Shown in pieces: positions 15,509-31,073 of a DNA stretch of 32,000 nucleotides. Origin of the DNA: Pyrodictium delaneyi (lineage in GTDB: Archaea; Thermoproteota; Thermoprotei_A; Sulfolobales; Pyrodictiaceae). A program made the position numbers and the translations under genes. Positions within the stretch are counted from its first letter, which is position 1. Every line of letters starts with the position of its first letter. The notes beneath the pieces were generated by a model. That model was not told the DNA's origin. It was given only the letters and a program-made list of their open reading frames with translations, and ran no database searches. The stretch lies in the NCBI RefSeq assembly GCF_001412615.1, contig NZ_CP013011.1, positions 750,001-782,000 of the forward strand, written 5' to 3'.

Positions 15509-17263
15509 ATGGTGTCAATGTTCATTGTCATAGCAATACTAGTCTTACTCGAATACATTCCTATGGGAAATGAAGGATACATGTCAAGTACTGTAAAGAG
15601 TTCTCCAGAGCAATCTATGTATACGAATACGGATAACTCAACGAAGATTAATTCTGAAGGTAGTAGCAACAATACCGTGACGAGCTGGTCGTCGATTTCC
15701 AGTAACGAGATTGCTAGAACAATGGATGCCACAGAAAACGAAGATATAGAGACCAAGATGACTGGCGTTGTTACTGTCACTACTACTACCACTGTGTTAG
15801 AAGAAAACAAGTTAATGCAGGATAACTTCCAATGGGAGCCTCCAGTTGTCAAATGGAGTTGGAAATGGATAGAACTAGGATGGAGGGGTCTCGTTGATGT
15901 CGAGACGACTAAGTTGCTTTCGAAGGGCTGTAGGTTTGATCCCGGCGTGTTTAACGAGTCTGCTGTAAGGTGCAGCTTGCTCCAGGCGCCTGCATTTACA
16001 AGATTGGCTCGAGCTTTAGCAGAGAATTCTTCTAGTATACTTGAGACAGCTGCGCGAGTTGCTGTATGGACGGCACTACATACCAAGTATATACCAGACG
16101 GCGAAGGCGTCGAGTACGTGTATACACCAGCAGAGACTCTTACACGAGGTGGGGGTGACTGTGAGGACCGTGCTCTCCTTGAGGCTGCGCTCCTCATAGC
16201 AGCGGGGATAGATAATGTAGTGCTGGTATCCTTTGAGTTTAACGATACTGACATAGGACACGTAGAGGCCGGAGTAATAGTTAATGGTACCCTTTATCTT
16301 CTGCCGCCAGTTAATGTTTCACTGCCTCTTGAACTCGAAGACTATGCAGGCTACATGTCGTTGCAGGGCTATAGGTTAGCCAGTGTAAAAGTCTATAACG
16401 TCAAAGTCTCTAGAAATGATGGAGCACTAGTAATAAGAGTAGGTGCTGAAGAACTCAGACCTCCTATGCCTCCAACAGAGCCTTGGAGACCCCCAAGAGC
16501 TTATCTTGATGTACTCGAAACTGAAGTTTTGCAGCTAATAGAGGGCCTTTACGGGAAGCCTCCTTGTCCCGGGTTTGTGCAGAGAGTGGTAGACTGGATG
16601 GCCGGCTATCTGCCGGAGCAGGAGCCGCCAATGATTCCGGTTGGCTACTACATGTATGCAGTGCCAATTACATTGTATAAGTCAAAACCTCTCTCCTATG
16701 CCATTGTGGAGGCACGTATTTACCTCGCATCGATGTTGGCCCAGGGGTTAGACCATTGGCTACGGGAGGAGAATCACTGGTGTGTAGTTGTTCACGCCGA
16801 AGCAGAGAATGTTGAAATGCAGTTATTCCGTTATACGCCTGGTGGCGCTCTGAAGGCTTATACCGGCCTTGCGCCGGCTACGGTGCTCCACGTGTTTAGC
16901 GGGCCCTGGCTACCCTGGTTTACGGCGAACGTAACCCTTGAAGATGGTCGACTAGTAATATACTCGAAGAACAATATCACTTCAATACTTGTCTACGGTG
17001 CGGGTATTGGTGACGATCTTGTAGAGCTAGTTGGCGTAGCTAAGCCCGGGGCCTTCTACCCCGGCTTGGAGACTGTAGAGGCTCTCAACTGGACCACGGA
17101 ATATAATGGATCCCTGATAGTGATTGAATATAGTAAATTGCTTGGTGCTGTCGAAGAGAAGGCTTCTAGATTGGGTGTTGAGCCTCCATTTCTCCTAGTA
17201 GTTTGGTCGGGCGACCGGGAGTTATACGAGATGCTTCTTGTGCCCCGAGATAATGGGGGCTAA
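15509..17263 (+). CDS. Membrane-anchored exoprotein with a transglutaminase-like (Cys-protease fold) domain
   Basis: N-terminal TM (FIVIAILVLLEYI), an AT-rich S/T/N low-complexity linker (VVTVTTTTTV), a TGase-core motif TLTRGGGDCEDRALLEAALLIAAGI (Cys218) followed by DIGHVEAGV, and at least 10 N-X-S/T sequons. Confidence 0.7.
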   Translation: MVSMFIVIAILVLLEYIPMGNEGYMSSTVKSSPEQSMYTNTDNSTKINSEGSSNNTVTSWSSISSNEIARTMDATENEDIETKMTGVVTVTTTTTVLEENKLMQDNFQWEPPVVKWSWKWIELGWRGLVDVETTKLLSKGCRFDPGVFNESAVRCSLLQAPAFTRLARALAENSSSILETAARVAVWTALHTKYIPDGEGVEYVYTPAETLTRGGGDCEDRALLEAALLIAAGIDNVVLVSFEFNDTDIGHVEAGVIVNGTLYLLPPVNVSLPLELEDYAGYMSLQGYRLASVKVYNVKVSRNDGALVIRVGAEELRPPMPPTEPWRPPRAYLDVLETEVLQLIEGLYGKPPCPGFVQRVVDWMAGYLPEQEPPMIPVGYYMYAVPITLYKSKPLSYAIVEARIYLASMLAQGLDHWLREENHWCVVVHAEAENVEMQLFRYTPGGALKAYTGLAPATVLHVFSGPWLPWFTANVTLEDGRLVIYSKNNITSILVYGAGIGDDLVELVGVAKPGAFYPGLETVEALNWTTEYNGSLIVIEYSKLLGAVEEKASRLGVEPPFLLVVWSGDRELYEMLLVPRDNGG

Positions 17264-17562
17264 TGAGCGGACGTGTGGAGGGGCTAGGTATGACGAGCCG
17301 TGCTGTGGAGAAGGCCTCCAAGGTGCAAGCCCTGCTCCAGAGTAGCGGCTTCTACGTCTCTAGGCACGCCTCCAGCATGCTCGTCATGCACTCCGACAGG
17401 ATAGTCGCTACACTGCACGTCTACGACGAAGAGTGCCGTCTCCACGTCTACCGGCCCTGGATGTCCGAGAACCGGGAAGCCCTAGAACAGCTACGCACAC
17501 TGCTCGCCAGACTCTGCACCAGTCTCGTGGAGAAAACTATGCCAGGGGATGCAGGAGCTTGA
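17263..17562 (+). CDS. Hypothetical small protein
   Basis: 99 aa. Its ATG overlaps the upstream stop (TAATG at 17261-17265), suggesting translational coupling. I recognised no motif. Confidence 0.45.
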   Translation: MSGRVEGLGMTSRAVEKASKVQALLQSSGFYVSRHASSMLVMHSDRIVATLHVYDEECRLHVYRPWMSENREALEQLRTLLARLCTSLVEKTMPGDAGA

Positions 17563-18206
17563 CGCGCAGCAATACAGTTGGCCAGGAGCGGGGGCTCCCG
17601 GGCCCCCTTGGGAGGCTCGTGGAGAAATCCGGGCCTTGGAGCCTCCTCATAGTGGTTCTCGGGCTCTGGCTGCTCGAGGCAGTATACTACGCCGTCCTGG
17701 CCGCAGATGTACATGGGATAAGTCTCTCGGCTCGTGGCCTACTACTCTACCTCAAGTTGGCAGCTGCCGGGGCTCCATTGGCTGTGTTACGCTGGCTCTT
17801 CTACATGGGAGGACTCTGGCTATCAGCCTGGCTCTTCGGGGCACGGGGGCTAGACGGGAGACGTGCTCTCGTGGCAGCATCGTACACAGCGATAGCGCAT
17901 ACAGTCTCTGCGCTGGTGCTCGTAGTTCTCTACACTGTTCTCGGGCTAGAGCCTACGTCAACGCTGATAGCGTTGAGCTACTATGGCTCCATGATTGTGG
18001 CGTTTGCCCTCCTACTATGGGCTACCTGTAGCATGCTTGGATACAACGTCCGCGCCGTCCTAGCCGCTGTATTGGCGGTTCTCCTCGTGAACCTAACGCC
18101 CGCTGCTGCTCTCACACCCGGGTTCAATGCGTATGCAAGCCTCTCATACCTGATAGCTGGCAGCGGGGCGGGCGCGGCGAACACTACAACCGTGAGGCAG
18201 GGCTAG
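17559..18206 (+). CDS. Polytopic membrane protein (Yip1-like, tentative)
   Basis: About five TM helices (WSLLIVVLGLWLL..., LWLSAWLF..., HTVSALVLVVLYTVL..., MIVAFALLLWA..., AVLAAVLAVLLV). The longest ORF (from 17433) overlaps the 99-aa gene. A TTG at 17559 overlaps that gene's TGA (TTGA), and a GTG at 17619 is the alternative start. Confidence 0.5.
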   Translation: MTRSNTVGQERGLPGPLGRLVEKSGPWSLLIVVLGLWLLEAVYYAVLAADVHGISLSARGLLLYLKLAAAGAPLAVLRWLFYMGGLWLSAWLFGARGLDGRRALVAASYTAIAHTVSALVLVVLYTVLGLEPTSTLIALSYYGSMIVAFALLLWATCSMLGYNVRAVLAAVLAVLLVNLTPAAALTPGFNAYASLSYLIAGSGAGAANTTTVRQG

Positions 18207-18384: not shown

Positions 18385-19569
18385 ATGATCAGGAGTTCTA
18401 TGAGGCTCGATATGAAGGGCTTTAGCCGTACTAAGCTAGCAGGAGCTATTGTAGTAGCGATTACGGCACTAGCAGCGTTAATAGTATTTGTATCAATAAT
18501 GGTTGATGTTGATGCGTCGAAAGTATATACAGAATTCCTCGAAGGCGGTTACACGATTACGAGTAGCAAGCTCTTCCAAGAAAAGGTTCTAGATACTGGC
18601 GGAGCCGTAGCTGTAATGTTCCGTTCAGACACGTGTCCGACATGTGAACGTATGTACCCGTACTGGAGGATGCTCGAGGAGAAGGCCTTGTCTCTAGGAT
18701 TTAAAGCCTATGATGTGAAACTCACACGGGACACTAGCACTATATTCAACAAGTACATGGTTCAAGATCTTCCTACATTTATAGTATTCTACGATGGCAA
18801 GCCCATAGCCAGGTACGTGGGTCCATTCACACCTGAGGACGGAAACGTGACCAGGGCGATGATAGACTGGGTGCTAGGTGCTCTCGAGGGCCGCAGTCTC
18901 GGGGCCGAGAAGGCTGAGTCGGCCACAGACCAGCAGACGTGGGCGGCGGGAGCGGCGTTAGCAGCCTCTGTAGCAGCTGCAGCGGCTGCCGGTGTTGTGT
19001 CGGCTTTCTCTCCTTGTGTCCTACCGCTGCTCATAACCAATAGTGTTGCTCTAGCTCGGCGTCGCAAGAATCCAGGTATAGCCGGCTGCTTAGTCTGCAG
19101 CCTCTCAGCCTTTGCCGGCATCATGGCTGTAGGTGTAGTGTTCCTATTAGCCTCCGGCCTCCTTGCCGGAGTACAAACAGTGCTCACGGGAATTGTAGCC
19201 GTGGCAGTGATGGCGGCAGGTATTTCATCACTGTTCGGCCTTCCTGCCGAGATACCAGTTACTCGCAGTATCCGCTCTGGCAGCCTAGCAGCATTTTGCG
19301 GACTTTACGGGTTCTTGGCTCTTCAGTGTAACCTTCCTCTAGTCGTCGGCGCGTTACTGCTAGTAGCGGGTAGTGGTGGCTTCACCCAGGGCTTGCTTGT
19401 GCTCCTTGCATTCTCGCTGGGTCTCTCCCTACCGCTTTCTGTAGCTGTCTACTTCGGCCCCCGTCTAGCTGTGCTAACGAGCCGAACGGGGGTACTCGAA
19501 AGACTAGGAGGCGCCGTGATGGTTCTCGCTGGAGCCGTGCTCCTAGCCTACAGCCTAGGCCTCATATAG
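18385..19569 (+). CDS. ccdA: Thioredoxin-domain/CcdA(DsbD-core) fusion: cytochrome c maturation thiol-reduction protein
   Basis: N-terminal TM, then an extracytoplasmic Trx fold with FRSDTCPTCERMYPYW (CxxC at nt 18634-18645). A 6-TM CcdA core follows, with both conserved Cys motifs (SAFSPCVLPLL and ALQCNLPLVVG). Confidence 0.85.
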   Translation: MIRSSMRLDMKGFSRTKLAGAIVVAITALAALIVFVSIMVDVDASKVYTEFLEGGYTITSSKLFQEKVLDTGGAVAVMFRSDTCPTCERMYPYWRMLEEKALSLGFKAYDVKLTRDTSTIFNKYMVQDLPTFIVFYDGKPIARYVGPFTPEDGNVTRAMIDWVLGALEGRSLGAEKAESATDQQTWAAGAALAASVAAAAAAGVVSAFSPCVLPLLITNSVALARRRKNPGIAGCLVCSLSAFAGIMAVGVVFLLASGLLAGVQTVLTGIVAVAVMAAGISSLFGLPAEIPVTRSIRSGSLAAFCGLYGFLALQCNLPLVVGALLLVAGSGGFTQGLLVLLAFSLGLSLPLSVAVYFGPRLAVLTSRTGVLERLGGAVMVLAGAVLLAYSLGLI

Positions 19570-19600: not shown

Positions 19601-22588
19601 ATGGCTATACATTATACGGGTATAGTCCCTGCGGCAGCTGCACTCGTCTACGTAGCGGCACTAGCTTACATGCTTCTCCGCCGCGATATTGAGATATCTG
19701 CTAAACTTGTAAAGAGGGCTGCTATACTCACTATAGTAGGCTGGCTAATATACTGGATACCATTTGCGATACTAGATTATAGTCTCCGCGAAGTATTCTG
19801 GAATACTAGTCCAGGGCTCCCTCTATGGATGAGGCTTGCCTCGGCCTGGGCGGGTGGAGGAGGAAGCCTATACCTATTCGCAACAATATCGGCCATAGCA
19901 ACACTCTATGTAATCCGTAGCCTAGCAGAAGCTAAGAAGCAGGATATTCTGGTAATGGGTACTGCTGCTGTAACGCTGGCAGCCATAGTTAGCGCATTCG
20001 CTAACGGCGCCTTCAGCGTGATGGAGGAACGCCCGGCTAGCGGTGCTGGGCTTAACCCGCTGCTTAAGAGTCCGTGGCTCTACCCGCACCCCCTCAGTAC
20101 CTTCGGCGGCTACGCGCTACTCGCGGTAGGCATGCTAGCACTGCTCGCGGGGCTACGCCGCCGCGGCTTCCTAGTCTACGAGCTTGGCTGGGCTCTCCTA
20201 ACCCTCGGCATCATGATTGGCGGCTACTGGAGCTACGAGACCTTCGGCTGGGGAGGCTACTGGGCATGGGACCCCGTAGAGACAAGCGAACTAATGGTAT
20301 GGCTTGCAGCCACGCTGCTACCTCACGCTATGGTGGCCGTGCCGAGCCTAGTCGCGTTCACCGAGTACCTAACGCTTTCTAGCGTATTCCTCGGCATGTA
20401 CGTGACGCGTAGCGGGCTCAGCCCTCTCCACAGCTTCGCCGCAGCCAACATAGGTGTGCTAGTACTCCTCGCCGTAGCCCTTGTTACACTCTTCCTCGCA
20501 TTCCGCCGGCTAGGCGAGTTCCGCCTCCCAAGCCTAGAGAATGTGCGAAGGAGCCCCTTCCAGGCAGGCATGCTGATAGCCACCATAGCCCTCTTCGCAG
20601 CGACCGTATTTGTCTACGCGACACTGCTTCTCCCCTCAGTACTCACTGCCGCCGGGTACGAGGCTAGTGTTCCTCAGATGCAGAGTGGTGTACGCTACTT
20701 CCACCCCGTACTCTACCCGCTACTAGTAGCGATGCTAGCAGCAATCCCGCTAGCATTCACAGGAGACAAACTAGGATGGAAAGGATACACAGCACTACTC
20801 CTAACAACAACAATAGTGTCGATACTAGCTGGGCTTGCGGCGTTTCAAGGCTCTCTTGTGCTTGCGCCACTCAGCAGCAGAGAGACAAATGCATTGATGG
20901 CCTTTGGGCTTCCCTGGGCTGGGCTTGCAGCTGCTGCAACGATACTCTACATAGCTCTGCGGCTACGTAACCGCGGCGGTAGACTCGCATGGGAGCGCAT
21001 GACGGGGATCAGTCTGCTACACCTGGGTCTAGCTGTTGTCGTCATCGGTGTCTTGCTCAGCGGTACATACTCGTTCAACGAGGCCTATTTCATCGATGCT
21101 AGTCTGAAGCCCGGCGAGCCTCTCGTACTCCCGAATGGTGTGAAAATAGAGCTTGTTGATTATCGGTTCGAGCTAAGCAACTCCATGGTAGACATTTATA
21201 CAGGCTATGCAGGGAGAGCGACTAGCTATCTTCTCGCCTGGAATACTTTGGCGATGTTGGCCTCAGACTACGGCCAGAAGGTTAAGCAAGCGCTTGAGGC
21301 TGAGAAGCTGCTTGAGGCAAACGAAACACTACGTACCCTTGTTGAGCTGGCTGTAAAGGCTCATATCTCCGCAACACGCGGCAACATCACTATAACAGGC
21401 GCCGCTAATGTGACAGGTATAGACCTATTCACGGGAGCCAAGACACCTATAGCAGAAAACATAAACATAACAATAGAACTCGTGAATCCAAGAGTTATGG
21501 CGGCCCTAGAGCCTCTACGGGACAATCTAGGCAGGGTAAAAGCCGCCAAACTCCGCATATACATTAGTGCTGATGAAGCCATTGTGGCGGGGCTACTGGG
21601 CGGCAACATTACAGCCCGCACGGTACTCGATATAGGGTTCGCGGATCCGGTAAAACTAGTGCTTGGGAATACATCGTTTGAGATAAGTCAATTGTACCTC
21701 TTAGCGACAGGCCATACCGGTCACCCAGCAGTAGAACATCGAGGCAATACCTTCACCTATAAGCCCGTAGTGGTTATCCCGAGCGGCCGTGTAGAGGTAG
21801 GAGGATACCATATCGCTAATCCGCTAGACGTGCCAGCGAGCCTCGCAGCTTACATAGAGAGTCGCCGGGATCCCTTCCTACAGAGACTTCTCAACAGCGG
21901 CCTAGCTGAGATACTGAGCAGCGATGCTGTAGTGAAAGCTCTGAACCCTCCAGGCTGTGAACCAGTAGCAGAGACACCTCACGGAGGTTGCTTCGGCTAC
22001 GTGGATGTACCTCGCACGGTTCCCGAGACTGCATGGCTAATTCTAGACCTACGTATTGAACGTGGTGATAAGGTACGTGAGGAGACTGTTGGACTCCGGT
22101 TCGAGTCGTACGGAGAAGTACAGGGTATACACGGCCTAGTAACTAAGGTTGTACATCCCCGGGTAGGACTCACAGACGTCTACATAGCGATACATGCGCC
22201 AGTGGTTACTCCAGAGTGGGGGGTCGCCGGGTACCATGAACTATTGGTCTACTATCTACACGCGGTGTACCAGTCGATGAACCTGACGCCTGCCCAGCGT
22301 ATAGCCCTAGCAGCACTCATGGCTTCAGGCTACATGATGGATACAGCTCTCTCGATAAACGATCCAGCTCAGCGCGGCCGCTTCCTCGAGCAAGCAGCGC
22401 TCGAACTCTACTTGCTGGCAGAGAGCTTCAATCCTCAGAACACCACCATAGTTCGGCAGGGACTCCCTATCCAGGTCAAACTGGTCCCGGGTGTAGCGCT
22501 AGTATGGTATGGTACAGTGATCATGGCGGCTTCAGCAGTCTATACAGCTATCATTGCAGCATATACTGCGAGGAAGGGACGCGCATAA
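19601..22588 (+). CDS. ccmF: CcmF-type cytochrome c haem lyase (System I) with a greatly expanded extracytoplasmic domain
   Basis: Collinear with E. coli CcmF (from memory): WMRLASAWAGGGGSLYLF; GLNPLLKSPWLYPHPLSTFGGY (P-His1); WWD motif WGGYWAWDPVETSELMVWL (nt 20249-20284); LLPHAM (TM-His1); YVTRSGLSPLHSFA (P-His2); LLHLGLAVVVIGV (TM-His2). It is 995 aa against roughly 650 for typical CcmF. Confidence 0.9.
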   Translation: MAIHYTGIVPAAAALVYVAALAYMLLRRDIEISAKLVKRAAILTIVGWLIYWIPFAILDYSLREVFWNTSPGLPLWMRLASAWAGGGGSLYLFATISAIATLYVIRSLAEAKKQDILVMGTAAVTLAAIVSAFANGAFSVMEERPASGAGLNPLLKSPWLYPHPLSTFGGYALLAVGMLALLAGLRRRGFLVYELGWALLTLGIMIGGYWSYETFGWGGYWAWDPVETSELMVWLAATLLPHAMVAVPSLVAFTEYLTLSSVFLGMYVTRSGLSPLHSFAAANIGVLVLLAVALVTLFLAFRRLGEFRLPSLENVRRSPFQAGMLIATIALFAATVFVYATLLLPSVLTAAGYEASVPQMQSGVRYFHPVLYPLLVAMLAAIPLAFTGDKLGWKGYTALLLTTTIVSILAGLAAFQGSLVLAPLSSRETNALMAFGLPWAGLAAAATILYIALRLRNRGGRLAWERMTGISLLHLGLAVVVIGVLLSGTYSFNEAYFIDASLKPGEPLVLPNGVKIELVDYRFELSNSMVDIYTGYAGRATSYLLAWNTLAMLASDYGQKVKQALEAEKLLEANETLRTLVELAVKAHISATRGNITITGAANVTGIDLFTGAKTPIAENINITIELVNPRVMAALEPLRDNLGRVKAAKLRIYISADEAIVAGLLGGNITARTVLDIGFADPVKLVLGNTSFEISQLYLLATGHTGHPAVEHRGNTFTYKPVVVIPSGRVEVGGYHIANPLDVPASLAAYIESRRDPFLQRLLNSGLAEILSSDAVVKALNPPGCEPVAETPHGGCFGYVDVPRTVPETAWLILDLRIERGDKVREETVGLRFESYGEVQGIHGLVTKVVHPRVGLTDVYIAIHAPVVTPEWGVAGYHELLVYYLHAVYQSMNLTPAQRIALAALMASGYMMDTALSINDPAQRGRFLEQAALELYLLAESFNPQNTTIVRQGLPIQVKLVPGVALVWYGTVIMAASAVYTAIIAAYTARKGRA

Positions 22589-23732: not shown

Positions 23733-24464
23733 ATGCATCGCGTAGCTGCAGTCCTAGCCCTACTACTTATAGCAAAACTAGCTGTAATCGCGCCAGCACA
23801 GGCCGCGGAAAGACTGGAAGTCAAGATATATCATGCAGAGCTAGGCCCCTTCATACAGACACTCGCAGACGGCCGCCGGATAATGGTGAAGATAGACGTC
23901 TACTTCCCCGACACGCTTGTCTACCGTGGCCCCGAGGAGGGTCTTGGCACAGTAAACTTCACAATAACTACTAACTGGACTGGTCCCTGGGACGGCATAG
24001 TAACGGTACAAGTAGTCGACCCAGGCTACCACATTGATCCAACTACGTTCAAGCCCGTCGAGTCGGTGAATGCGTGGGCTGAGGGCGGCGACACGGTTGG
24101 TACTGGGGCGCTCCACATAGCTAGTGGCGCCTATACGGGCAGCGTCAAGAACATGACCGTGGTGTTGAGGCCCCACGAGCGCTACTTTACTGCTCCTAGT
24201 GGCGAGTACACGGCACAATACTTCTTCAAAGCCCGGCTAGCATTCTTCAAGCCTGATGGCAGCAAAGTGCTGGGAGGCGATGTGAACATCTACACGGATA
24301 GCGAAACAGCACCAATGATCAAACTGATAGTAGTCAAGGAACCCGAAGCTGGGGGCGACAATAGGCTGGCAGGCTCTATAGCACTAAATGCTGGTATAGC
24401 AGCGGCAGTAGTAGCTGTAGGCTACGCTGTAGTAGAGTATCTTGTGAGGCGTAAACGAGGCTAG
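23733..24464 (+). CDS. Secreted, C-terminally membrane-anchored beta-rich protein of unknown function
   Basis: Signal peptide MHRVAAVLALLLIAKLAVIAPAQA|AE, three N-X-T sequons, and a C-terminal TM plus basic tail (AAVVAVGYAVVEYLVRRKRG). AAGGTGA lies 6 nt before the ATG. Confidence 0.6.
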   Translation: MHRVAAVLALLLIAKLAVIAPAQAAERLEVKIYHAELGPFIQTLADGRRIMVKIDVYFPDTLVYRGPEEGLGTVNFTITTNWTGPWDGIVTVQVVDPGYHIDPTTFKPVESVNAWAEGGDTVGTGALHIASGAYTGSVKNMTVVLRPHERYFTAPSGEYTAQYFFKARLAFFKPDGSKVLGGDVNIYTDSETAPMIKLIVVKEPEAGGDNRLAGSIALNAGIAAAVVAVGYAVVEYLVRRKRG

Positions 24465-24473: not shown

Positions 24474-24478
24474 TTTTT
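24474..24478 (+). terminator. Oligo-T tract after 23733-24464
   Basis: CCCCGGTCTTTTTGA lies 10 nt after the stop and is followed by a 374-nt non-coding spacer. Confidence 0.35.
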
Positions 24479-24764: not shown

Positions 24765-24791
24765 TAAAAATAATAAATTAAATTTAAATAA
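24765..24791 (+). promoter_or_regulatory. AT-only block (TATA/BRE candidate) upstream of the octahaem cytochrome gene
   Basis: 27 consecutive A/T (TAAAAATAATAAATTAAATTTAAATAA) end 48 nt before the ATG. AAGGTGGGAGG immediately precedes the ATG at 24839. Confidence 0.45.
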
Positions 24792-24838: not shown

Positions 24839-26827
24839 ATGCAAAAACCCTTAGCCAAGATTGTAGTCTTTTGGGTAATAGCACTCTTCCTCCTTCCCAG
24901 CATAGCACCCCTAGCAAGAGCAGCAACCTACAGCTGGGGCGAAGAGATCAGCCTCTCAGGTGTACAGCTAACAACAGAGTCTAAGGACTGTGTAGAGTGC
25001 CACATGCGTGCTACACCCTTCATAGTATACGACTGGTATAAGAGCAAGCACCGCATGGTCGGCGTAGGCTGCTACGAGTGTCACAGTGCTAAGCCCGGAA
25101 CAAGGCCCGACGTCTACGAGCACTACGGCTACTACATAACAACCCTAGTGACGCCCAAGCAGTGTGGCCGCTGCCACCCCGCAATAGCCGAGGAGTTCCA
25201 GAAGAGCGTCCACGCGTTCGCCGGAGTACACGCCTACGTGCTGAAGGAGGAGCCAGCCTACTGGATGATCCTAGCGAAGCAGTTTGGCTGGGACGAGCAC
25301 TTCAAGGTGCCAGCCGAGTATATCGAGACGGAGTGGGTACCTAAGATAGTGCGTGACTTCGTCGGCGATCAGAATTACGGTAAAGTCGTGCTAGAAGAGG
25401 ATCCAACCAACGCTATAATCCCGTACAACCCGCTTGGCCTAAGTATTGACAACTACGTTGCCCAGAAGGCCCTCTACATCTGGGGTATACGCGGCTGTCT
25501 AGGATGCCACGGCGTACGTATGGACGTCAAGGACGCGTTTGCCTTCCCGAGTCTAGACGAGCTAATGCAGTACATGAAGGAGGGCAAGGCTCCCGAGAAG
25601 GTAGTGTATGACCCGGCGTTCATGCACAACCACGGTATCGGCCGCGTGAACCCTGACGGCAGTCTAGGCAGCTGTGAGGCATGCCACCCGTATCACGGCT
25701 TCAGCGTAAAGATAGCCAGGAAGGGCGCCTACCAGGCATGTGGCCGCTGCCACACGGGACCAGACCATCCGAACGACGAGCAGTGGAGTAAGAGCGTACA
25801 CGGCGCCATATTCTGGGGCGAGGCCGAGGACTGGGACTGGGACAAGCCTGTCAACAACTGGATGCCAGGCCGCGACTACAGGGCACCCACATGTGTAACC
25901 TGCCACATGGCTGCAGTGTTCAACGAGCGTGGCGAGGTCAAGTATGCTAGCAGCCACGACGTAGCCATAATCAGCAAGTTCAAGCTAGGCAAGTGGGTAT
26001 ACACTCTACCGCGTGTAGCTGGCCTGCCAGATTTCGCAATACCGACAGCCACAGCGACCCAGGCACCTGTATTCAAGAGCCCGACAACAGGCGACACGAT
26101 AACACTAGTCTACCCAGAGCCCGACTGGAAGGCACGCAGACAGAGAGCAATTGACATGTGTGCCCAGTGCCACACCAAGGAGTACGCGGCGGCATGGTTG
26201 AAGACCTACGACTGGATGATCATACTAGTAGACTACATGAGAGACGAGTACGTACTAACCGTAGCCAACATGCTGAAGGCAAAGGGTCTATTCACACCAA
26301 TGGACGAGTGGATGGTGAGAAACCTAGGTGCTATGGCCAATAGGCCCACTAAGATGTCTGCAGCACACTTCGGCCCCGACTTCACCTGGTGGGAGGGCAT
26401 AATGCACTTCGCTGAGAAGATAGAGGAGTGGCTAATCGATGTATACGAGAGGCCTGCTGTAGCCAAGAAGGCGCCAGAGATACGCGAGAAGATCGAAGAG
26501 ATACTGCCATGGTTCAAGGAGCAGTGGGAGGGCGAGGGCAGCACTGGCACAGTACACAGCCTTGCAGAGGTGAAGACAGCTATCGCTAAGGCCGTCGAGG
26601 CGCCGAGCATAGAGGCCTATGCTCAGAAGGTAGAGACCCTAGAACCGCCAGCAAAGCCGCTAGTAGCCAAGGCGCCGGTGAAGACCCTAGGTGAGGTCAG
26701 CGAGTTCAGCCTAACACTGCCAGGCAGCGATGCTAGCCGCGAGGTGCCGGTAGCAGTATTCGCGGTGTTCCCGGCAGCACCTCTACTACTAGTCTTCGTA
26801 TCCAGAAAGCGCGCTGTAGCAGCATAA
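24839..26827 (+). CDS. Octahaem c-type cytochrome of the hydroxylamine oxidoreductase (HAO) family, membrane-anchored
   Basis: Eight CXXCH motifs (CVECH, CYECH, CGRCH, CLGCH, CEACH, CGRCH, CVTCH, CAQCH). Several blocks are collinear with Nitrosomonas HAO (see findings). It has a signal peptide (...LARA|AT) and a C-terminal stalk plus TM anchor ([21 protein letters not shown]). Confidence 0.9.
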   Translation: [662 protein letters not shown]

Positions 26828-26999: not shown

Positions 27000-28898
27000 T
27001 TGTACTGGGAGCCAGCACTTTACCTAGCTCTCTCGGCTGAGGCGATCGCAGCAGCCTACGCGGTAGGTAGGGGGATGCGAGAGGGGTATGATAGACCCTT
27101 CGAGACTGGACCGGTATACCGTGTAGGCCTCGTGCTTACGGCGGTTTCTTTCCTGCTCGCGCTACGCTTCGACGTAATGGTGACTGTGCCTAGTCTCATG
27201 CTGCTCGCGTCTAGTCTAGCAGTCCTCGCGGGAGCCCGGCTACGGTTGAGAATGAGTCCAGTTGAAGCACTAGCCTCCACCATAGCCTTTTACTCGTTCG
27301 CTCTAGCATCGCTCGCTGCCCGTGCAGCAGTGCTCGACCTGGATCCACGTGGTGAAGCACTACTTCCGTGGGTTCTGTTAACGCTGGCGGCTGGCTGGGG
27401 CCTACTAGCGGCATTGGTAACCATGAGCGAACCCCAGAGGAGCATTGCTGCAGTCATGGGTCTACTTGGCGGTGTAGGACTGGCGGCTCTAGGTTTCTGG
27501 CTGCTCTTCAATACTAGGATCGGATCGCCGCTTTACGGGGACGCACTCAGTATGGCTCTGCTCGCGCTGCTAGTAACTGGTGCTGCCATTGCTTCAAGGT
27601 TATCCCCATACCTGGTGCTGGCATCCGGCGTGATTGCGGCTCTCCTCGCGGGCCGCTCGCTTCTCGCGGGTGGTGTCCCCTACATAGCTTGCACAGGTAG
27701 CTGCGGCTCCCTGGCCACGGCATGGCTCATATTCGTCATAGTCGTGGCCGCGCCTCGGCTATACCTCGAAGCCGAGACGGTACGTGGAAGGATGCGTGCT
27801 GCTGGGCTGGAGACAGTGTTCTCGCCCTCCACACTTGCCTCGGCTTCGGTGCTGCTGGCGGGACTAGCTGCATGGGCTTCACTTCAAGGCTCGTTGAGCA
27901 TAGGTACCGTAGCTGCTGTGAGCGTATTAGTGGCCTCAGCTGCTGCTGGCGGGGGCTCTGCTTCGGCGCTTGTGCTATTCCTAGGCGCTATAGCTGCTAT
28001 CTACAGTCCCGCACTAGGCATAGTGGTTTCTGCTATAGCGGCTGTTGCGGTTCCAGCACTGCTACGGAACCAGCGACTAGGTCCATTAAATCCCCCTAAG
28101 GGCCTCGTGTACGGGCTATTGCTGGTGGTCATTGGGCTTGCTGCAGGAGGCTACATAGCAGCTACGCTTGGTCACAGTATGCAAGCTGAAGCCTCGATAA
28201 CAGTAGCTGGGCTTGGGCCCGCTAAGCTAGTGCAGCCGCCAAGCGACGAGGTGACGCACGCCTTCTTCCAGCTCTATCTCGGCGTCAAGAACGAGACATT
28301 GCTATACGCGCTACTCGCGCCGAAGCTGGGCAAAGATGAGGCACTAAAAATGGTTGAGTTTGCTCATGCCGTCCGCTTGGCAGCTGAAAAGCGTGGGATA
28401 AACGACCCCTATAACATAACCGAGCTTGATATACCTCGTAAAATGCCTAGCCTCGAGACCAGGATCGAAACCAATGGCGTATCAGCGACAGTGAATGTAC
28501 CGGCTTCAAGTATACTCTACGGCCATCCATACACTAGCGGTGTCGAGAGGGCCGGGCTTGACCTCGTATCCGTCACGCTGCCTAGCAATGTCACTAAGGC
28601 ATTGACTGATATCTACCTCCGCTTAGTCTCTGATCCAAAGCTAGCTGGTGATGATGCTCTTCGCTACACGATATTTGCCGCAATGGCTGTAAGCTGGAGA
28701 GAAACGGGCACCCTGAATATGACGGCGCAGCTGATCTTCGATTCGTTGCTCGGTAACAATACTGTGGCTAACCACGTGTCTTCGGAGGTTAGCGTCGCAA
28801 GAGCCTCGTTAGGCGTTATTGCCCTAGTTGTCTACATGGGGTGCCTGGTTGCTGCTCCTGTCGCACCACTTCTGGTCAATGTTCGTAGAAGCGGCTAG
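27000..28898 (+). CDS. Large polytopic membrane protein with a C-terminal extracytoplasmic domain and terminal TM; unknown function
   Basis: 632 aa. About 12 Ala/Leu/Gly-rich TM helices (aa 1-400), a ~200-aa soluble domain with five N-X-S/T sequons, and a final TM (LGVIALVVYMGCLVAAPVAPLLV). TTG start with AGGGGAG 7 nt upstream. No CXXCH motif. Confidence 0.6.
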   Translation: MYWEPALYLALSAEAIAAAYAVGRGMREGYDRPFETGPVYRVGLVLTAVSFLLALRFDVMVTVPSLMLLASSLAVLAGARLRLRMSPVEALASTIAFYSFALASLAARAAVLDLDPRGEALLPWVLLTLAAGWGLLAALVTMSEPQRSIAAVMGLLGGVGLAALGFWLLFNTRIGSPLYGDALSMALLALLVTGAAIASRLSPYLVLASGVIAALLAGRSLLAGGVPYIACTGSCGSLATAWLIFVIVVAAPRLYLEAETVRGRMRAAGLETVFSPSTLASASVLLAGLAAWASLQGSLSIGTVAAVSVLVASAAAGGGSASALVLFLGAIAAIYSPALGIVVSAIAAVAVPALLRNQRLGPLNPPKGLVYGLLLVVIGLAAGGYIAATLGHSMQAEASITVAGLGPAKLVQPPSDEVTHAFFQLYLGVKNETLLYALLAPKLGKDEALKMVEFAHAVRLAAEKRGINDPYNITELDIPRKMPSLETRIETNGVSATVNVPASSILYGHPYTSGVERAGLDLVSVTLPSNVTKALTDIYLRLVSDPKLAGDDALRYTIFAAMAVSWRETGTLNMTAQLIFDSLLGNNTVANHVSSEVSVARASLGVIALVVYMGCLVAAPVAPLLVNVRRSG

Positions 28899-28935: not shown

Positions 28936-28961
28936 AAGACAAAGGCTAAAAGCTATTGTAA

Positions 28962-30272
28962 ATGCTCTTTCCTATAAAACTGGTGGAGGGAGGCGAGGCT
29001 ACAGTGGACACCACGAAAGCCGCCAGGACGCTGATAATAGTAGCGGTATTTCTAGTAGCACTCTTTGCTTACTGGCAGCTGACAGTGCCAGGATACTTTA
29101 AGGGCGTAGAGTTATGTGGCAAAGGCTGCCACGTGACCAGCGTCCTCGACTACGAGAAGATAAACCACCCCTTCTGGTGTATAGGCTGCCACGGGTTCGG
29201 CGTAAAGAGCGAGATCCTGCCCGGGATCCCGCTCTACCGGGACCACGAGCTAGAGATGCTAGTGGAGGAGCACGGCGAGTGCCTAATGTGCCATCGTGTA
29301 CCCGGAGAGTTCCACTGGAAGCACATTAACGCAACTGAGGAAGACCTAGCCAAGCTAGAGCTAATGCGCCCGGTACAGTGTACAGATTGTCACACCACAG
29401 CCTACCATGGAGGTCACAAGGACAGGCCAAAGGATGACGTATGTCTAAAATGTCACGATGCCGAGAAGCTTCATCCAGATATGAATAAAAAATTGGTCGC
29501 AGCTTGCACCAAGTGCCACTCTGAGGAGCCTGCTGTAGACTGGGCGATTTTCAAGAAGGGTCAGATAGGCTACGGGTTTGTAGCTGACGCAGGCCTAGCA
29601 CTTGCAGCAGACCTCGGCGTAGTGAAAACAACGGCCCCGGGCTGTCTCCTTTGCCACAATATACCGGAGACACAGGGTCACCTAAAACACATGGGCAAAG
29701 AATACAATGGTAAACGGGTAGAGTGTCTAGATTGTCACAAGAATGATATACCCCATGGCGAGAAGATAGGAACGAACGTATGTCTCGACTGTCATAATCC
29801 CAAGGAGACTAAATGCCATGACAAGGGCTTTGAGGAGTTCCTACTAGACTGTTACCGGTGCCATGGCGGCTTCGCGCTGGCTAATGAGACGCTCTACCTG
29901 GCCGGCAAAGGCTGTGAAGGCTGTCACGGCGACACTCTCGAGAAGGTTGTAGGCATAGGGCTACACTCTAGCCACATACCCTACTATGCGTGCAGCAAAT
30001 GCCATGACGTTGAATCGGGAAGCCATAGCCGATTCGTAGAGTCTGCAAGCGATCCAGAGAAGTGCCTCGACTGCCACACGAAGGCCGCAGGAGTCAAGTC
30101 TGAGGCGCTTCAGGGACTGAGAACTAGTACAGCCCTATCATTCAGCGAAGACATTAGACATGTAGAGCTAGTGGAGAAGGCTAAAGGCAATTGCCTCAAG
30201 TGCCACGACGAGTGGCATGTGGCAGGCAAGCCTAGGATAATCTACGGCAAGAGTAAAGGGGAGGGAAGCTAG
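28962..30272 (+). CDS. Membrane-anchored multihaem c-type cytochrome (13 CXXCH + 1 CX3CH)
   Basis: N-terminal TM anchor (TLIIVAVFLVALFAYWQLTV). Motifs in order: CGKGCH (CX3CH), CIGCH, CLMCH, CTDCH, CLKCH, CTKCH, CLLCH, CLDCH, CLDCH, CYRCH, CEGCH, CSKCH, CLDCH, CLKCH, in 436 aa. Many extra His residues are available as distal ligands. Confidence 0.9.
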   Translation: MLFPIKLVEGGEATVDTTKAARTLIIVAVFLVALFAYWQLTVPGYFKGVELCGKGCHVTSVLDYEKINHPFWCIGCHGFGVKSEILPGIPLYRDHELEMLVEEHGECLMCHRVPGEFHWKHINATEEDLAKLELMRPVQCTDCHTTAYHGGHKDRPKDDVCLKCHDAEKLHPDMNKKLVAACTKCHSEEPAVDWAIFKKGQIGYGFVADAGLALAADLGVVKTTAPGCLLCHNIPETQGHLKHMGKEYNGKRVECLDCHKNDIPHGEKIGTNVCLDCHNPKETKCHDKGFEEFLLDCYRCHGGFALANETLYLAGKGCEGCHGDTLEKVVGIGLHSSHIPYYACSKCHDVESGSHSRFVESASDPEKCLDCHTKAAGVKSEALQGLRTSTALSFSEDIRHVELVEKAKGNCLKCHDEWHVAGKPRIIYGKSKGEGS

Positions 30273-30326
30273 TCATGTACATTCTCATTCCTCTTAGAAG
30301 TGTGGATAGGAGGTGGCATGTAAACC

Positions 30327-31073
30327 TTGAGTGTTGTCAGGGCTGAGGCTGAAGGGGGACGGGCCCCTAGCTGGCTAGAGGAACACATGTGGCGCCGCTT
30401 ACGCGCACTATTCGACTTGGTACTTCAGCTCAGCGTTCTCAGACGTCGCCGCGACCTAGGTGAGTGGCTTGTAGCGTGGCTGACTTACCTAGGTCTTGTT
30501 GGCGCTATACTTACAGCAATAATAACAGCAGCCACCCGTGGTGTAGTGCTTGCAGCTAATACGGTCCTAAGGCCTCATGCACTTCCTATAATCAGCCCAG
30601 CGCTCGAGAAACTGTTCATAAGCTGGCCACAGCTAGCAATAGGTATGGGTTATCATGCGCATATAATCACAGCGCTATACTTTGCAGCACCAGCCTATAC
30701 AGCAGCTCTAGTAGCAGCCTTCCTGCTAAAGGACGAATGGCTGCGCAGCTTCCTATTCCCGCGAGGAATTAACGCTAGGGACGTCTCCGACCACTTGTTG
30801 CTAGTGCTAAGCTTCCTCACAGCCTGGGCTGCGGCAGTAATAGCGCCACAGATGGCGGCTGAGGGTGCACTGGTGCCCGGGCTACAAGCACTTGCACCAC
30901 ACATCGCTATAGGAACCTTCTGGATAATCTACTCGCTAGCGATACGCGGACTAGCCTACCGTGTAGTAGGCACAGCGCTGACACTGCTATACGTGGTTGT
31001 ATTCAATCGCTACCCGGAAAGAGTGTTCAGAGATATCTTTGAAGAAGATCCATGGGTAAGCCTACTACGCTAA
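30327..31073 (+). CDS. Integral membrane protein, candidate b-type cytochrome/quinol-interacting subunit (speculative)
   Basis: 248 aa with 5-6 TM helices. His residues lie in or next to the helices (RPHALP, GYHAHIITALYF, DHLLLVLSF, APHIAIGTFW). TTG start 11 nt after GGAGGTG. It starts 54 nt after the 13-haem gene with no T-tract between them. Confidence 0.45.
   Translation: MSVVRAEAEGGRAPSWLEEHMWRRLRALFDLVLQLSVLRRRRDLGEWLVAWLTYLGLVGAILTAIITAATRGVVLAANTVLRPHALPIISPALEKLFISWPQLAIGMGYHAHIITALYFAAPAYTAALVAAFLLKDEWLRSFLFPRGINARDVSDHLLLVLSFLTAWAAAVIAPQMAAEGALVPGLQALAPHIAIGTFWIIYSLAIRGLAYRVVGTALTLLYVVVFNRYPERVFRDIFEEDPWVSLLR

What the first reader, a model, noticed from the sequence alone, without database searches (positions are those of the whole stretch)
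15509..31073. 15.5-kb co-directional cluster joining cytochrome c maturation to a membrane-anchored multihaem module in an archaeal context
Eleven consecutive plus-strand genes have short gaps or overlapping stop/start codons (TAATG at 17261-17265, TTGA at 17559-17562). In order they are a TGase-like exoprotein, a 99-aa protein, a Yip1-like membrane protein, a Trx-CcdA fusion, a giant CcmF, a second TGase-like exoprotein, an anchored beta-rich protein, an HAO-family octahaem, a 632-aa polytopic membrane protein, a 13+1-haem cytochrome and a His-rich membrane protein. Together the cluster carries 21-22 covalent haem sites, and hemA sits in the same window. Every soluble part is predicted to be tethered to the outer face of the membrane. 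The order octahaem - membrane protein - cytochrome(s) mirrors by position the bacterial haoA-haoB-cycA-cycB arrangement, but the partners are different proteins. Multihaem c-cytochrome respiratory modules are uncommon in Crenarchaeota, and I know of none with this composition. Candidate roles are nitrite or hydroxylamine reduction to ammonium, reduction of S-oxyanions, or outward electron transfer to Fe(III) or other extracellular acceptors.
Basis: partly seen in the sequence, partly recalled or inferred. Interest (0 to 1): 0.85.

Follow-up and report, generated by a model that had tools for sequence, protein, structure and literature searches.

The report
Pyrodictium multihaem cytochrome respiratory gene cluster
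This is the membrane-anchored multihaem cytochrome cluster of the hyperthermophilic archaeon Pyrodictium delaneyi, already published in 2021 as an iron-oxide-induced "Mcc" respiratory complex; the additions here are that its octahaem belongs to the hydroxylamine-oxidoreductase family and that the conserved unit is six genes, not eleven.

Summary
Eleven plus-strand genes lie at 15509-31073. They include an octahaem (8 CXXCH), a 13 CXXCH + 1 CX3CH cytochrome, a Trx-CcdA fusion and a 995-aa CcmF.

The window is Pyrodictium delaneyi Su06; the octahaem is Pyrde_0784. Kashyap & Holden 2021 (PMC8105010) described Pyrde_0784-0787 as a novel membrane cytochrome complex, "Mcc". Pyrde_0784 was haem-stained and about 60-fold more abundant on ferrihydrite than on nitrate. 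The core finding is therefore already known.

New here:
- The conserved unit is six genes, F-G-H-I-J-K, intact in Pyrolobus fumarii, P. abyssi and several MAGs. The ccm genes D-E are frequent but dispensable neighbours. A-C show no conserved linkage.
- H has its own TATA-like element, conserved in five species, so the cluster is several transcription units.
- H is an HAO-family octahaem. It keeps the HAO Asp-His dyad and has no conserved Tyr where the P460 cross-link would lie, which points to a reductive type. The 2021 paper does not mention HAO.
- I and K are lineage-restricted orphans.

Most likely function: an outward-facing quinol-to-acceptor electron-transfer module used in Fe(III) oxide respiration. 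An N-oxide reductase role is the main rival.

The parts
15509..17263 (+). A: N-terminally anchored exoprotein with a Ser/Thr/Asn-rich stalk and a transglutaminase-like (DUF553) domain. Peripheral; not shown to belong to the module.
   Evidence: Pfam PF04473 3.3e-14; GDCED at residue 216; no conserved linkage to the module in other loci.
17263..17562 (+). B: 99-aa soluble protein with no family assignment. Its start overlaps the stop of A.
17559..18206 (+). C: membrane protein of about 215 aa with 4-5 TM helices and no family assignment. 'Yip1-like' is not supported.
   Evidence: No Pfam/NCBIfam hit; TTGA overlap; a 31%-identical relative lies 5 kb upstream of F in L003.
18385..19569 (+). D (Pyrde_0780): TM anchor, extracytoplasmic thioredoxin domain (CPTC) and a CcdA/DsbD-beta-like 6-TM domain (SPCVLP, LQCNLP). 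It would supply thiol reductant for apocytochrome CXXCH motifs.
   Evidence: Pfam Thioredoxin 3e-09; NCBIfam DsbD/TsoB weak, 3.8e-06; motifs; detected in the proteome, log2FC 2.43, adjP 0.033.
19601..22588 (+). E (Pyrde_0781): CcmF/NrfE-type haem lyase with a complete core. It has the WWD motif WGGYWAWDP at residue 217 and His residues in YPHP, LLPHAM, SPLHSF and SLLHLG. A roughly 470-aa extracytoplasmic extension and a final TM helix follow. It is the second ccmF of the genome.
   Evidence: Pfam PF01578 2.9e-18; TIGR00353 2.1e-37, below its cutoff; motifs and TM map; two ccmF genes in strain Hulk; abundant and unregulated.
22730..23713 (+). F (Pyrde_0782): TM anchor, coiled coil and a transglutaminase/cysteine-protease-like domain with a Cys-His-Asp triad. 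First gene of the conserved six-gene module.
   Evidence: Weak Pfam DUF553 match, 0.01; triad conserved in 6 of 7 orthologues; synteny; detected in the proteome.
23733..24464 (+). G: secreted protein without cysteine, carrying a signal peptide and a C-terminal TM anchor. No family assignment. Always found between F and H.
   Evidence: synteny.
24777..24791 (+). AT-rich TATA-like element (…ATTAAATTTAAATAA…) about 50 nt upstream of the H start codon. Candidate archaeal promoter of H.
   Evidence: TTTAAATAA-type box conserved in P. delaneyi, its MAG, P. abyssi, the Hyperthermus MAG and Pyrolobus. An oligo-T tract at 24474 lies just after the G stop.
24839..26827 (+). H (Pyrde_0784): HAO-family octahaem cytochrome c with a signal peptide and 8 CXXCH motifs. 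It has the Asp309-His310 dyad and an extension of about 100 aa ending in a C-terminal TM anchor.
   Evidence: Haem-stained and about 60-fold up on ferrihydrite.
27000..28898 (+). I (Pyrde_0785): polytopic membrane protein with about 12 poorly conserved TM helices, a conserved extracytoplasmic domain (about residues 400-590) and a C-terminal TM helix. Orphan family.
   Evidence: No Pfam/NCBIfam hit; only 4 close homologues; alignment; AF2 model failed, pLDDT 35.
28962..30272 (+). J (Pyrde_0786): N-terminal TM helix, an invariant PGYF motif, then CX3CH and 13 CXXCH (14 haem sites). There are 13 invariant non-motif His residues. It looks like a c3/c7/HmcA-type haem wire.
   Evidence: Pfam Cytochrome_C7 and c3_2; TIGR03508 DmsE-family 7.6e-12, below its cutoff.
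30327..31073 (+). K (Pyrde_0787): membrane protein with 4-5 TM helices and five invariant His residues (84, 110, 112, 156, 192). Orphan family confined to this lineage. Always follows J, and overlaps it in Pyrolobus.
   Evidence: AF2 pLDDT 64 and no Foldseek match.
31095..31100 (+). Oligo-T tract 22 nt after the K stop codon. Likely archaeal terminator at the end of the cluster.

Best explanation
The functional unit is the six-gene module F-G-H-I-J-K, not all eleven genes. It is specific to Pyrodictiaceae and related Desulfurococcales.

Proposed mechanism (inferred unless marked otherwise):
- It encodes an outward-facing, membrane-tethered multihaem cytochrome c system that takes electrons from the (methyl)menaquinol pool and delivers them to an acceptor outside the cytoplasmic membrane.
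- Entry point: the J-K pair. J has a TM helix with its first haem (CX3CH) immediately at the membrane surface, 14 haem sites but only 13 conserved distal His. K is a His-rich membrane partner that is translationally coupled to J in Pyrolobus.
- Transfer: electrons run along J's haem wire to H.
- H is a reductive-type HAO-fold octahaem, presumably trimeric, held on a roughly 100-aa C-terminal tether. It would have seven bis-His haems and one open catalytic haem under an Asp-His dyad.
- Shown by others in P. delaneyi: H is switched on for ferrihydrite respiration.
- Inferred role of H: terminal or penultimate Fe(III) reductase, comparable to the NrfA-like surface cytochrome OcwA of Thermincola.
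- I, F (a transglutaminase/protease-like protein) and G are accessory scaffold, assembly or anchoring factors.

D-E are a second, cluster-linked CcdA-thioredoxin/CcmF pair. They provide haem-attachment capacity for these 22 haem sites. They are optional neighbours of the module, not part of its core. A-C are probably bystanders.
For: - Identity with Pyrde_0784.
- Published haem stain plus MS, and about 60-fold induction on ferrihydrite versus nitrate. D, I and K trend about 5-fold up; E, F and J were detected.
- F-K synteny in P. abyssi, Pyrolobus fumarii, a Hyperthermus MAG and further MAGs. The haem counts are the same (8 and 13+1).
- H aligns to the HAO family across all haem motifs: 4QO5 5.6e-68, 6H5L 2e-28, 1FGJ 2e-20. 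NeHAO Asp267-His268 corresponds to the invariant D309-H310.
- H has exactly 8 invariant non-motif His residues, which fits 7 distal ligands plus the dyad His. No Tyr is invariant downstream of haem 8.
- In J, the CX3CH motif and PGYF just after the TM helix are invariant, and 13 non-motif His are invariant for 14 sites.
- J and K are adjacent everywhere, and their genes overlap in Pyrolobus.
- E has the full CcmF signature. ccm genes sit next to the module in the window, P. abyssi, L004 and L005.
Against: - No experiment shows that H, I, J and K form a complex. J could not be quantified, and I and K were not significantly regulated.
- Kashyap & Holden assign the terminal Fe(III) step to molybdopterin enzymes, not to Mcc.
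- J's N-terminus does not match NapC/NrfH models, and K matches nothing, so the quinol-oxidation site is pure inference.
- Structure models of K and I were unusable.
- The retained catalytic Asp-His pocket, and an ammonium-transporter gene inside the module in L006/L035, point towards small N-oxide substrates rather than minerals.
- Pyrolobus fumarii carries the module, yet no held paper describes it as an iron reducer.
Confidence: 0.5

Rival explanations
1. H is primarily an N-oxide reductase that reduces nitrite, hydroxylamine or NO to ammonium (or nitrite to NO). J-K would feed it from the quinol pool, as NrfH feeds NrfA. On this view the module is the missing nitrite-reducing system of Pyrodictiaceae, and the ferrihydrite induction is indirect.
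For: - H is an HAO-family member with the canonical Asp-His dyad and no conserved cross-link Tyr.
- Non-cross-linked HAO relatives reduce N-oxides: IhOCC is described as an octahaem nitrite reductase, and Kuenenia HAOr reduces nitrite to NO (PMC9250108). Epsilon-Hao reduces nitrite to ammonium in vitro (PMC9213671).
- An ammonium-transporter gene lies between G and H in L006, with a remnant in L035. Amt genes also lie near bacterial hao-like genes in L043, L045 and L068.
- The module is intact in Pyrolobus fumarii, which from my own knowledge reduces nitrate to ammonium.
- The P. delaneyi strain Hulk genome has no obvious nitrite reductase, and this gene was named as the closest candidate (PMC5556600).
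Against: - H is about 60-fold LOWER in nitrate-grown than in ferrihydrite-grown P. delaneyi.
- Strain Hulk does not use nitrite.
- P. abyssi also carries the module.
- No activity data exist for this protein.
Confidence: 0.25
2. The module reduces a sulfur compound (sulfite, thiosulfate, polysulfide or tetrathionate). This is what has been hypothesised for uncharacterised HAO clade I/II proteins of hydrothermal Desulfobacterota.
For: - Speth et al. 2022 proposed sulfur reduction for HAO-family proteins outside the nitrogen cycle (PMC9213671).
- The octahaem relatives MccA and OTR act on S-oxyanions.
- The homologue IhOCC is abundant in Ignicoccus hospitalis, for which elemental sulfur is, from my memory of Parey et al. 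2016, the only known acceptor.
- The closest bacterial relatives of H come from hydrothermal taxa.
Against: - P. delaneyi Su06 is the one Pyrodictiaceae member stated not to grow by sulfur reduction (PMC8105010), yet it keeps and expresses the module.
- No copper site or CX15CH motif of the MccA type is present.
- There is no direct evidence.
Confidence: 0.1
3. The module is a general quinol:cytochrome c hub with no terminal activity of its own. It would act as a bc1/CymA substitute that only relays electrons to separate terminal enzymes: the molybdopterin 'Frc' complexes, Nap and Nor. This is the published Kashyap & Holden model.
For: - It is the proposed model in PMC8105010.
- The carriers have diverse respiratory physiologies and share no single acceptor.
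- The two molybdopterin complexes are induced 50- to 3000-fold on ferrihydrite.
Against: - A hub should be needed on nitrate as well, yet H is almost absent there.
- H keeps a catalytic-type open-haem pocket with Asp-His and only 7 candidate distal His residues. A pure relay would not need this.
Confidence: 0.15

Closest known systems
'Mcc' putative multihaem cytochrome c respiratory complex of Pyrodictium delaneyi, Pyrde_0784-0787 (Kashyap & Holden 2021, PMC8105010)
   Same: It is the same locus. H is 100% identical to Pyrde_0784 and I is 100% identical to Pyrde_0785. The octahaem plus 13-haem composition is the same, as is the proposal of a membrane quinol-oxidising complex linked to ferrihydrite respiration.
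   Different: - The paper treats four genes. It does not include F-G or the ccm pair D-E.
- It does not recognise the octahaem as HAO-family: 'hydroxylamine' occurs 0 times in the text.
- It reports the Pyrolobus homologues as 11- and 6-haem proteins. I count 8 and 13+1 motifs in the Pyrolobus genes.
IhOCC (Igni_0955) of Ignicoccus hospitalis, PDB 4QO5
   Same: It is the closest solved structure (profile E 5.6e-68). It is an archaeal, membrane-associated octahaem in the HAO clade without a P460 cross-link.
   Different: - Sequence similarity is only moderate, 164 bits. That is weaker than to bacterial Caldithrix/Aquificales-type proteins at about 330 bits.
- IhOCC has Asp-Val where H and the HAOs have Asp-His.
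- IhOCC (521 residues in the solved chain) has no equivalent of the roughly 100-aa C-terminal tether of H in the alignment.
- Its gene neighbours were not examined.
Reductive HAO-like proteins: Kuenenia Kustc0458 (PDB 6H5L), HAOr, and epsilonproteobacterial epsilon-Hao
   Same: They share the eight-haem HAO core and the Asp-His dyad (6H5L: GPDHP, identical to H). They lack the cross-linking Tyr, and their chemistry is reductive.
   Different: They are bacterial and soluble periplasmic or anammoxosomal proteins, with different redox partners. None of F, G, I, J or K lies next to any bacterial hao-like gene.
haoA-haoB-cycA-cycB cluster of ammonia oxidisers
   Same: The gene order is octahaem, membrane protein, multihaem cytochrome(s), with electrons exchanged with the quinone pool.
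   Different: - The direction is opposite: that system is oxidative and uses the P460 Tyr cross-link, which is absent here.
- J is not c554 or cM552-like by Pfam/NCBIfam.
- No detectable relative of I was found next to bacterial hao-like genes. HaoB itself was not compared directly.
OcwA / OmhA surface multihaem terminal reductases of thermophilic Gram-positive iron reducers
   Same: They are members of the NrfA/HAO-superfamily fold with open-coordination haems, and are described as cell-surface MHCs. This is a functional analogy for H. That they act as terminal Fe(III) reductases is from my own knowledge.
   Different: They belong to a different clade (clade 3 versus clade 1), have 9 to 11 haems and two penta-coordinated haems, and are bacterial.
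System I cytochrome c maturation: CcmF/NrfE haem lyase and CcdA/DsbD with a thioredoxin partner
   Same: E has the WWD motif and the four conserved His contexts. D has a CPTC thioredoxin domain and two PC..P-type membrane cysteines.
   Different: - E carries a roughly 470-aa extracytoplasmic extension in place of the usual C-terminal part. It scores below the NCBIfam cutoffs.
- It is a second copy beside the main ccm cluster.
- D fuses the thioredoxin and CcdA domains in one polypeptide.

Membership tests
HAO / octahaem cytochrome c family (HAO-HDH-IhOCC clade) | Eight CXXCH motifs in the HAO order, with significant similarity to solved members | tested here: met
   H has 8 CXXCH motifs. Profile against PDB: 4QO5 5.6e-68, 6H5L 2e-28, 6HIF 5e-22, 1FGJ 2e-20, with alignments covering haem motifs 1-3 and 4-8. 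Pfam PF13447 4.3e-18.
HAO / octahaem cytochrome c family (HAO-HDH-IhOCC clade) | Catalytic Asp-His dyad after the haem-6 motif (NeHAO Asp267-His268) | tested here: met
   1FGJ residues 259-268 (CATCHSGVDH) align to H C301-H310 (CGRCHTGPDH). D309 and H310 are invariant in 12 sequences.
HAO / octahaem cytochrome c family (HAO-HDH-IhOCC clade) | One penta-coordinated haem and seven bis-His haems | tested here: inconclusive
   There are exactly 8 invariant non-motif His residues (H71, 95, 125, 286, 310, 321, 373, 510). This fits 7 distal ligands plus the dyad His. It is a count only; no structure or spectroscopy was available.
Oxidative HAO/HDH subclade (P460 enzymes) | Cross-linking tyrosine C-terminal to haem 8 (NeHAO Tyr467, about 105 residues after the haem-8 motif) | tested here: not met
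   No Tyr is invariant anywhere after C441 in alignment A1. The candidate positions are Phe515 in the window protein and Tyr/Ala/Ile at position 542. The region cannot be aligned to 1FGJ.
CcmF/NrfE haem lyase (System I) | WWD motif, two periplasmic His and two TM His, and a match to the family models | tested here: met
   WGGYWAWDP at residue 217. His residues lie in YPHP (159), LLPHAM (239), SPLHSF (274) and SLLHLG (471). PF01578 2.9e-18. TIGR00353 2.1e-37, but 129 bits against a 569-bit cutoff. Assignment of the His residues to P-His and TM-His is by recalled E. coli motifs.
CcdA / DsbD-beta thiol-disulfide transporter | Polytopic domain with two conserved membrane cysteines, and a family model match | tested here: inconclusive
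   SPCVLP (209) and LQCNLP (313) lie in TM segments. Only weak NCBIfam DsbD/TsoB hits were found (3.8e-06, far below cutoff), and there was no Pfam DsbD hit. UniProt names it Thioredoxin/Cytochrome C biogenesis protein.
NapC/NirT/NrfH quinol dehydrogenase family (for J) | N-terminal TM helix followed by a tetrahaem module matching PF03264 / TIGR03153 | tested here: not met
   No PF03264 hit was found. TIGR03153 matches only residues 343-418, at E 0.0022. Only the general layout is shared: a TM helix followed by the first haem motif 14 residues later.
Di-haem cytochrome b quinol oxidases (NarI/FdnI/cyt b type) (for K) | Match to a known family or fold, with paired His residues on TM helices | tested here: not met
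   No Pfam, NCBIfam or PDB-profile hit. Only 4 clusters were found among 1.84 billion representatives. AF2 pLDDT was 64 and Foldseek found nothing below E 1. Five invariant His residues exist, but not in a 13-14-residue paired spacing.
haoA-haoB-cycA-cycB gene cluster | HaoB-, c554- and cM552-homologous partners downstream of the octahaem | tested here: not met
   J has no Cytochrome_C554 hit. I and K have no tblastn hit next to any of 72 bacterial hao-like loci, even at E 5. HaoB was not available for a direct comparison.
Transglutaminase-like / papain-like cysteine protease fold (A and F) | Cys-His-Asp triad in a TGase-core domain | tested here: met
   A: PF04473 3.3e-14. F: PF04473 0.01. 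In F, GDCED / (D/Q/A/E)HC / (A/L)DP are conserved in 6 of 7 orthologues. A cross-hits F orthologues by tblastn.

The most novel reading that the evidence does not exclude
The ferrihydrite-induced cytochrome of P. delaneyi is a reductive-type HAO-family octahaem. Together with three orphan membrane or exo-proteins (I, K, G), a transglutaminase-like protein (F) and a 14-haem wire (J), it forms a previously unclassified archaeal quinol-to-mineral electron conduit. This would be the first HAO-clade protein with a physiological role in extracellular Fe(III) respiration, and an EET architecture unrelated to the Mtr/Omc/OmcS systems.
Probability: 0.3. Interest if true: 0.7.

Novelty: already known. 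Interest (0 to 1): 0.4.

Why it matters
How hyperthermophilic Crenarchaeota respire insoluble Fe(III) oxides is unresolved. This locus is one of the few experimentally flagged candidates.

Recognising its octahaem as a reductive-type HAO-family enzyme links two literatures that have not been connected. One is archaeal iron respiration. The other is the large set of HAO clade I/II proteins of unknown function; a 2022 survey noted that no HAO-family protein had a suggested role outside the nitrogen cycle.

The analysis also corrects the unit to test, which is the six genes F-K. It points to Pyrolobus fumarii and P. abyssi as natural comparison organisms. The basic discovery, however, is published, so the gain is refinement rather than novelty.

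Tried and rejected
- AlphaFold2 of K (13-sequence alignment) gave pLDDT 64 and pTM 0.43. Foldseek against PDB found nothing below E 1, so no fold could be assigned.
- AlphaFold2 of I (4 sequences) gave pLDDT 35 and was unusable. No Foldseek search was run on it.
- A profile of K against PDB sequences gave 0 hits at E 10. An exhaustive HMMER search of 1.84 billion representatives found only 4 clusters, so no distant annotated relatives could be used.
- The homologue search for I found only 4 close proteins.
- 'Yip1-like' for C was rejected: there is no Pfam or NCBIfam hit at E up to 1.
- J as a NapC/NrfH member was rejected.
- I as a HaoB analogue, and any bacterial conservation of F, G, I or K, was rejected.
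- hemA as part of the cluster was rejected: it is 13 kb away, on the opposite strand, with unrelated genes between.
- The sigma-70 promoter and intrinsic-terminator scan does not apply to an archaeon. It was replaced by a TATA/oligo-T inspection and a cross-species alignment.
- Rfam and tRNA scans of the window found nothing.
- A direct alignment to the NeHAO Tyr467 region was not possible, because HMMER alignments stop shortly after haem 8. The absence of any invariant Tyr downstream of haem 8 was used instead.

Full report
**Identity of the window.** The octahaem ORF (24839-26827) is 100% identical to 'hypothetical protein Pyrde_0784 [Pyrodictium delaneyi]'. ORF I is 100% identical to Pyrde_0785. 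Upstream genes fit an archaeon: type IV pilins, a FlaI-like ATPase, KaiC, SufS and glutamyl-tRNA reductase.

**Observation.**
- All eleven plus-strand ORFs are present.
- The overlaps TAATG (17261-17265) and TTGA (17559-17562) are exact.
- H has 8 CXXCH motifs. J has 13 CXXCH plus CGKGCH.
- Family searches support A as DUF553/TGase-like, D as thioredoxin plus a weak DsbD/CcdA match, E as Cytochrom_C_asm and CcmF/NrfE, and H as an HAO-type multihaem.
- C has no family match, so 'Yip1-like' is not supported.
- Gaps are not uniformly short. G-H is 374 bp, C-D 178, H-I 172 and E-F 141.

**Prior literature.**
- Kashyap & Holden 2021 (PMC8105010) already describe Pyrde_0784-0787 (H-I-J-K) as a putative multihaem cytochrome c respiratory complex, 'Mcc', unique to Pyrodictiaceae.
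- In that study Pyrde_0784 was identified by MS in a haem-stained 140-kDa band seen only in ferrihydrite-grown cells. It was about 60-fold more abundant on ferrihydrite than on nitrate (log2FC 5.93, adjP 0.002).
- The supplementary tables give: D (Pyrde_0780) log2FC 2.43; E (0781) abundant and unchanged; I (0785) 2.39 and K (0787) 2.26, both not significant; F (0782) and J (0786) detected but not quantified.
- Their model is hydrogenase to methylmenaquinone to Mcc to molybdopterin 'Frc' enzymes to ferrihydrite.
- The strain Hulk genome paper (PMC5556600) lists two ccmF genes. One (Pdsh_01745) lies beside these cytochromes. The other lies in the main ccmABC/CcdA cluster beside a second octahaem. 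That paper also notes that the octahaem here is the closest thing to a nitrite reductase in the genome, and that Hulk does not use nitrite.

**What the unit really is.**
- A scan of 185,579 species genomes with an H-family profile returned 80 loci. tblastn of all eleven proteins against them shows F-G-H-(I)-J-K in the archaeal loci only: L001, L003, L004, L005, L006, L013 and L035.
- Look-ups of K orthologues gave complete-genome contexts. Pyrolobus fumarii 1A has F-G-H-I-J-K (325, 249, 666, 576, 423 and 245 aa), preceded by fibrillarin and an M28 peptidase, with no ccm gene. Pyrodictium abyssi has E-F-G-H-I-J-K.
- Haem counts in the orthologues are 8 and 13+1. One MAG has 19+1 in J. This differs from the '11- and 6-heme' statement for Pyrolobus in the 2021 paper.
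- ccm genes are frequent neighbours. They occur in the window and in P. abyssi. In L004 there are a CcmF C-terminus, a CcmC-like gene and a 184-aa protein. In L005, D-E sit on the opposite strand. They are absent in Pyrolobus and in L003.
- A and B have no conserved linkage. A C-like gene lies 5 kb upstream of F in L003.

**Transcription.**
- An oligo-T tract follows G (24474), E (22642), H (26863) and K (31095). The I-J gap holds a T7 run.
- An AT-rich TATA-like box at 24777-24791, about 50 nt upstream of the H start codon, is conserved in five species even where the flanking sequence has diverged.
- Together with the unequal protein regulation, this argues for several transcription units rather than one operon.

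**The octahaem H.**
- The best solved relative is IhOCC of Ignicoccus hospitalis (4QO5; 3.3e-47 with the single sequence, 5.6e-68 with the profile). Next come Kuenenia Kustc0458 (6H5L), HDH and Nitrosomonas HAO.
- All haem motifs align. NeHAO residues 259-268 (CATCHSGVDH) align with H 301-310 (CGRCHTGPDH), so the catalytic Asp267-His268 corresponds to D309-H310. These two residues are invariant in the 12-sequence alignment. IhOCC has Asp-Val at this position.
- The alignment has exactly eight invariant non-motif His residues. This fits seven distal ligands plus the dyad His.
- No Tyr is invariant downstream of haem 8, where the P460 cross-linking Tyr of oxidative HAOs lies.
- H is therefore a reductive-type HAO-family protein. 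The literature links loss of the cross-link to reductive chemistry (PMC9250108).
- The nearest non-Pyrodictiaceae sequences are bacterial: Caldithrix, Aquificales and Thermodesulfobacteriota MAGs at 35-38% identity and about 330 bits. These are closer than IhOCC.
- Those bacterial genes are followed by an unrelated protein of about 190 aa with one TM helix, not by I, J or K.
- H differs from them by a C-terminal extension of about 100 aa that ends in a hydrophobic anchor.

**Partners.**
- J has an N-terminal TM helix, an invariant PGYF motif, an invariant C-x-x-G-C-H motif 14 residues after the helix, and 13 CXXCH motifs. It has 13 invariant non-motif His for 14 sites. Its only similarities are to c3/c7-type wires: HmcA 2.8e-06, and weaker matches to ActA and 6R2Q chain A (from memory the MtrCAB complex), plus the DmsE family below its cutoff. 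It does not match NapC/NrfH.
- K has five invariant His residues and no detectable relative outside this lineage: 12 proteins in the word-indexed search and 4 clusters among 1.84 billion representatives. Its model was of low confidence, with no fold match.
- I has about 12 poorly conserved TM helices and a conserved extracytoplasmic C-terminal domain. Its model failed.
- F keeps a Cys-His-Asp triad. G has no cysteine and no cofactor motif.

**Maturation genes.**
- E has the WWD motif and His residues in the four contexts expected of CcmF. After the last of these comes an extracytoplasmic extension of about 470 aa and one TM helix.
- D has an anchor, a CPTC thioredoxin domain and a 6-TM domain with two PC..P-type cysteines.
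- Both proteins were detected in the proteome.

**Function.**
- The best-supported reading is an outward-facing module that carries electrons from quinol to an external acceptor. It is induced for Fe(III) oxide respiration, with H as the terminal or penultimate reductase.
- Shown: the sequence features, the synteny, expression, haem c in H, and induction on ferrihydrite.
- Inferred: complex formation, the site of quinol oxidation, and the acceptor.
- The main rival is N-oxide reduction. It is supported by the intact HAO pocket, by an ammonium-transporter gene inserted between G and H in L006 (with a remnant in L035), by Amt genes near some bacterial hao-like genes, and by the module's presence in Pyrolobus fumarii. 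It is contradicted by the near absence of H in nitrate-grown P. delaneyi.
- A role in sulfur-compound reduction (PMC9213671) and a pure relay role (the published model) remain possible.

**Verdict.** The increments made here are the six-gene definition of the module, the internal promoter, the reductive-type HAO assignment, the orphan status of I and K, and the corrected haem counts for Pyrolobus.

Noticed in passing
L006:8192-9433 (between G at 7106-7879 and H at 9947-11908); L035:9203-9421: An ammonium transporter gene (Pfam Ammonium_transp, 6.5e-125) sits inside the module in a Thermoproteota MAG, on the same strand. A 74%-identical fragment lies at the same place in a Desulfurococcales MAG. 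Amt genes also lie 1-8 kb upstream of bacterial hao-like genes in L043, L045 and L068.
   Followed up: partly
window 31397-32000 (runs off the end); L083:11002-12084: A radical SAM/SPASM gene follows K directly in the window (CNLRCQYC motif). Its 360-aa P. abyssi counterpart matches TIGR04084 (AF0577 family) at 1.7e-124. Pyrolobus instead has an unrelated B12-binding radical SAM gene (TIGR04013) on the opposite strand. A role in protein or cofactor maturation for the module is conceivable but untested.
   Followed up: partly
window 26540-26827 (H residues ~568-662) and alignment A1: The C-terminal tail of H ends in a hydrophobic stretch with a conserved P-A-A, followed by Arg/Glu-rich residues. 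In the second Pyrodictiaceae clade the stretch is very short (…ALFVIPAALVEGRREE), which is short for a TM helix. It could be a sorting or processing signal rather than a simple anchor. The adjacent TGase/protease-like F would be a candidate processing enzyme.
   Followed up: no
L010, L011, L012, L014, L015 (immediately downstream of the hao-like gene): The closest bacterial relatives of H (Aquificales, Thermodesulfobacteriota and unclassified MAGs) are each followed by a conserved protein of about 185-197 aa with one TM helix and no Pfam family. In L011 and L014 a CLC-type channel gene lies divergently upstream.
   Followed up: partly
window 10691-15199, minus strand: A type IV pilus-like locus lies directly upstream of the cluster. 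It has two pilin genes with class III signal peptides (14224-14628 and 14747-15199), a FlaI/T2SSE ATPase (12411-14030) and two polytopic TadC/FlaJ-like ORFs. This may be relevant to the direct-contact requirement for ferrihydrite reduction, but no link was tested.
   Followed up: no
L002 (2.8-kb contig of the same P. delaneyi MAG as L001): A second G-H fragment occurs in the same MAG, with G only 75% and H 94% identical to the window. This is either strain heterogeneity in the bin or a diverged second copy.
   Followed up: no
L081:4730-10001 (Pyrolobus fumarii 1A): The Pyrolobus orthologues carry 8 and 13+1 haem motifs. The published comparison (PMC8105010) states 11 and 6.
   Followed up: yes
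window 15454-16254, minus strand: A 266-aa antisense ORF overlaps the 5' part of gene A. It is low-complexity and Ser-rich, and is most likely a spurious shadow ORF.
   Followed up: no
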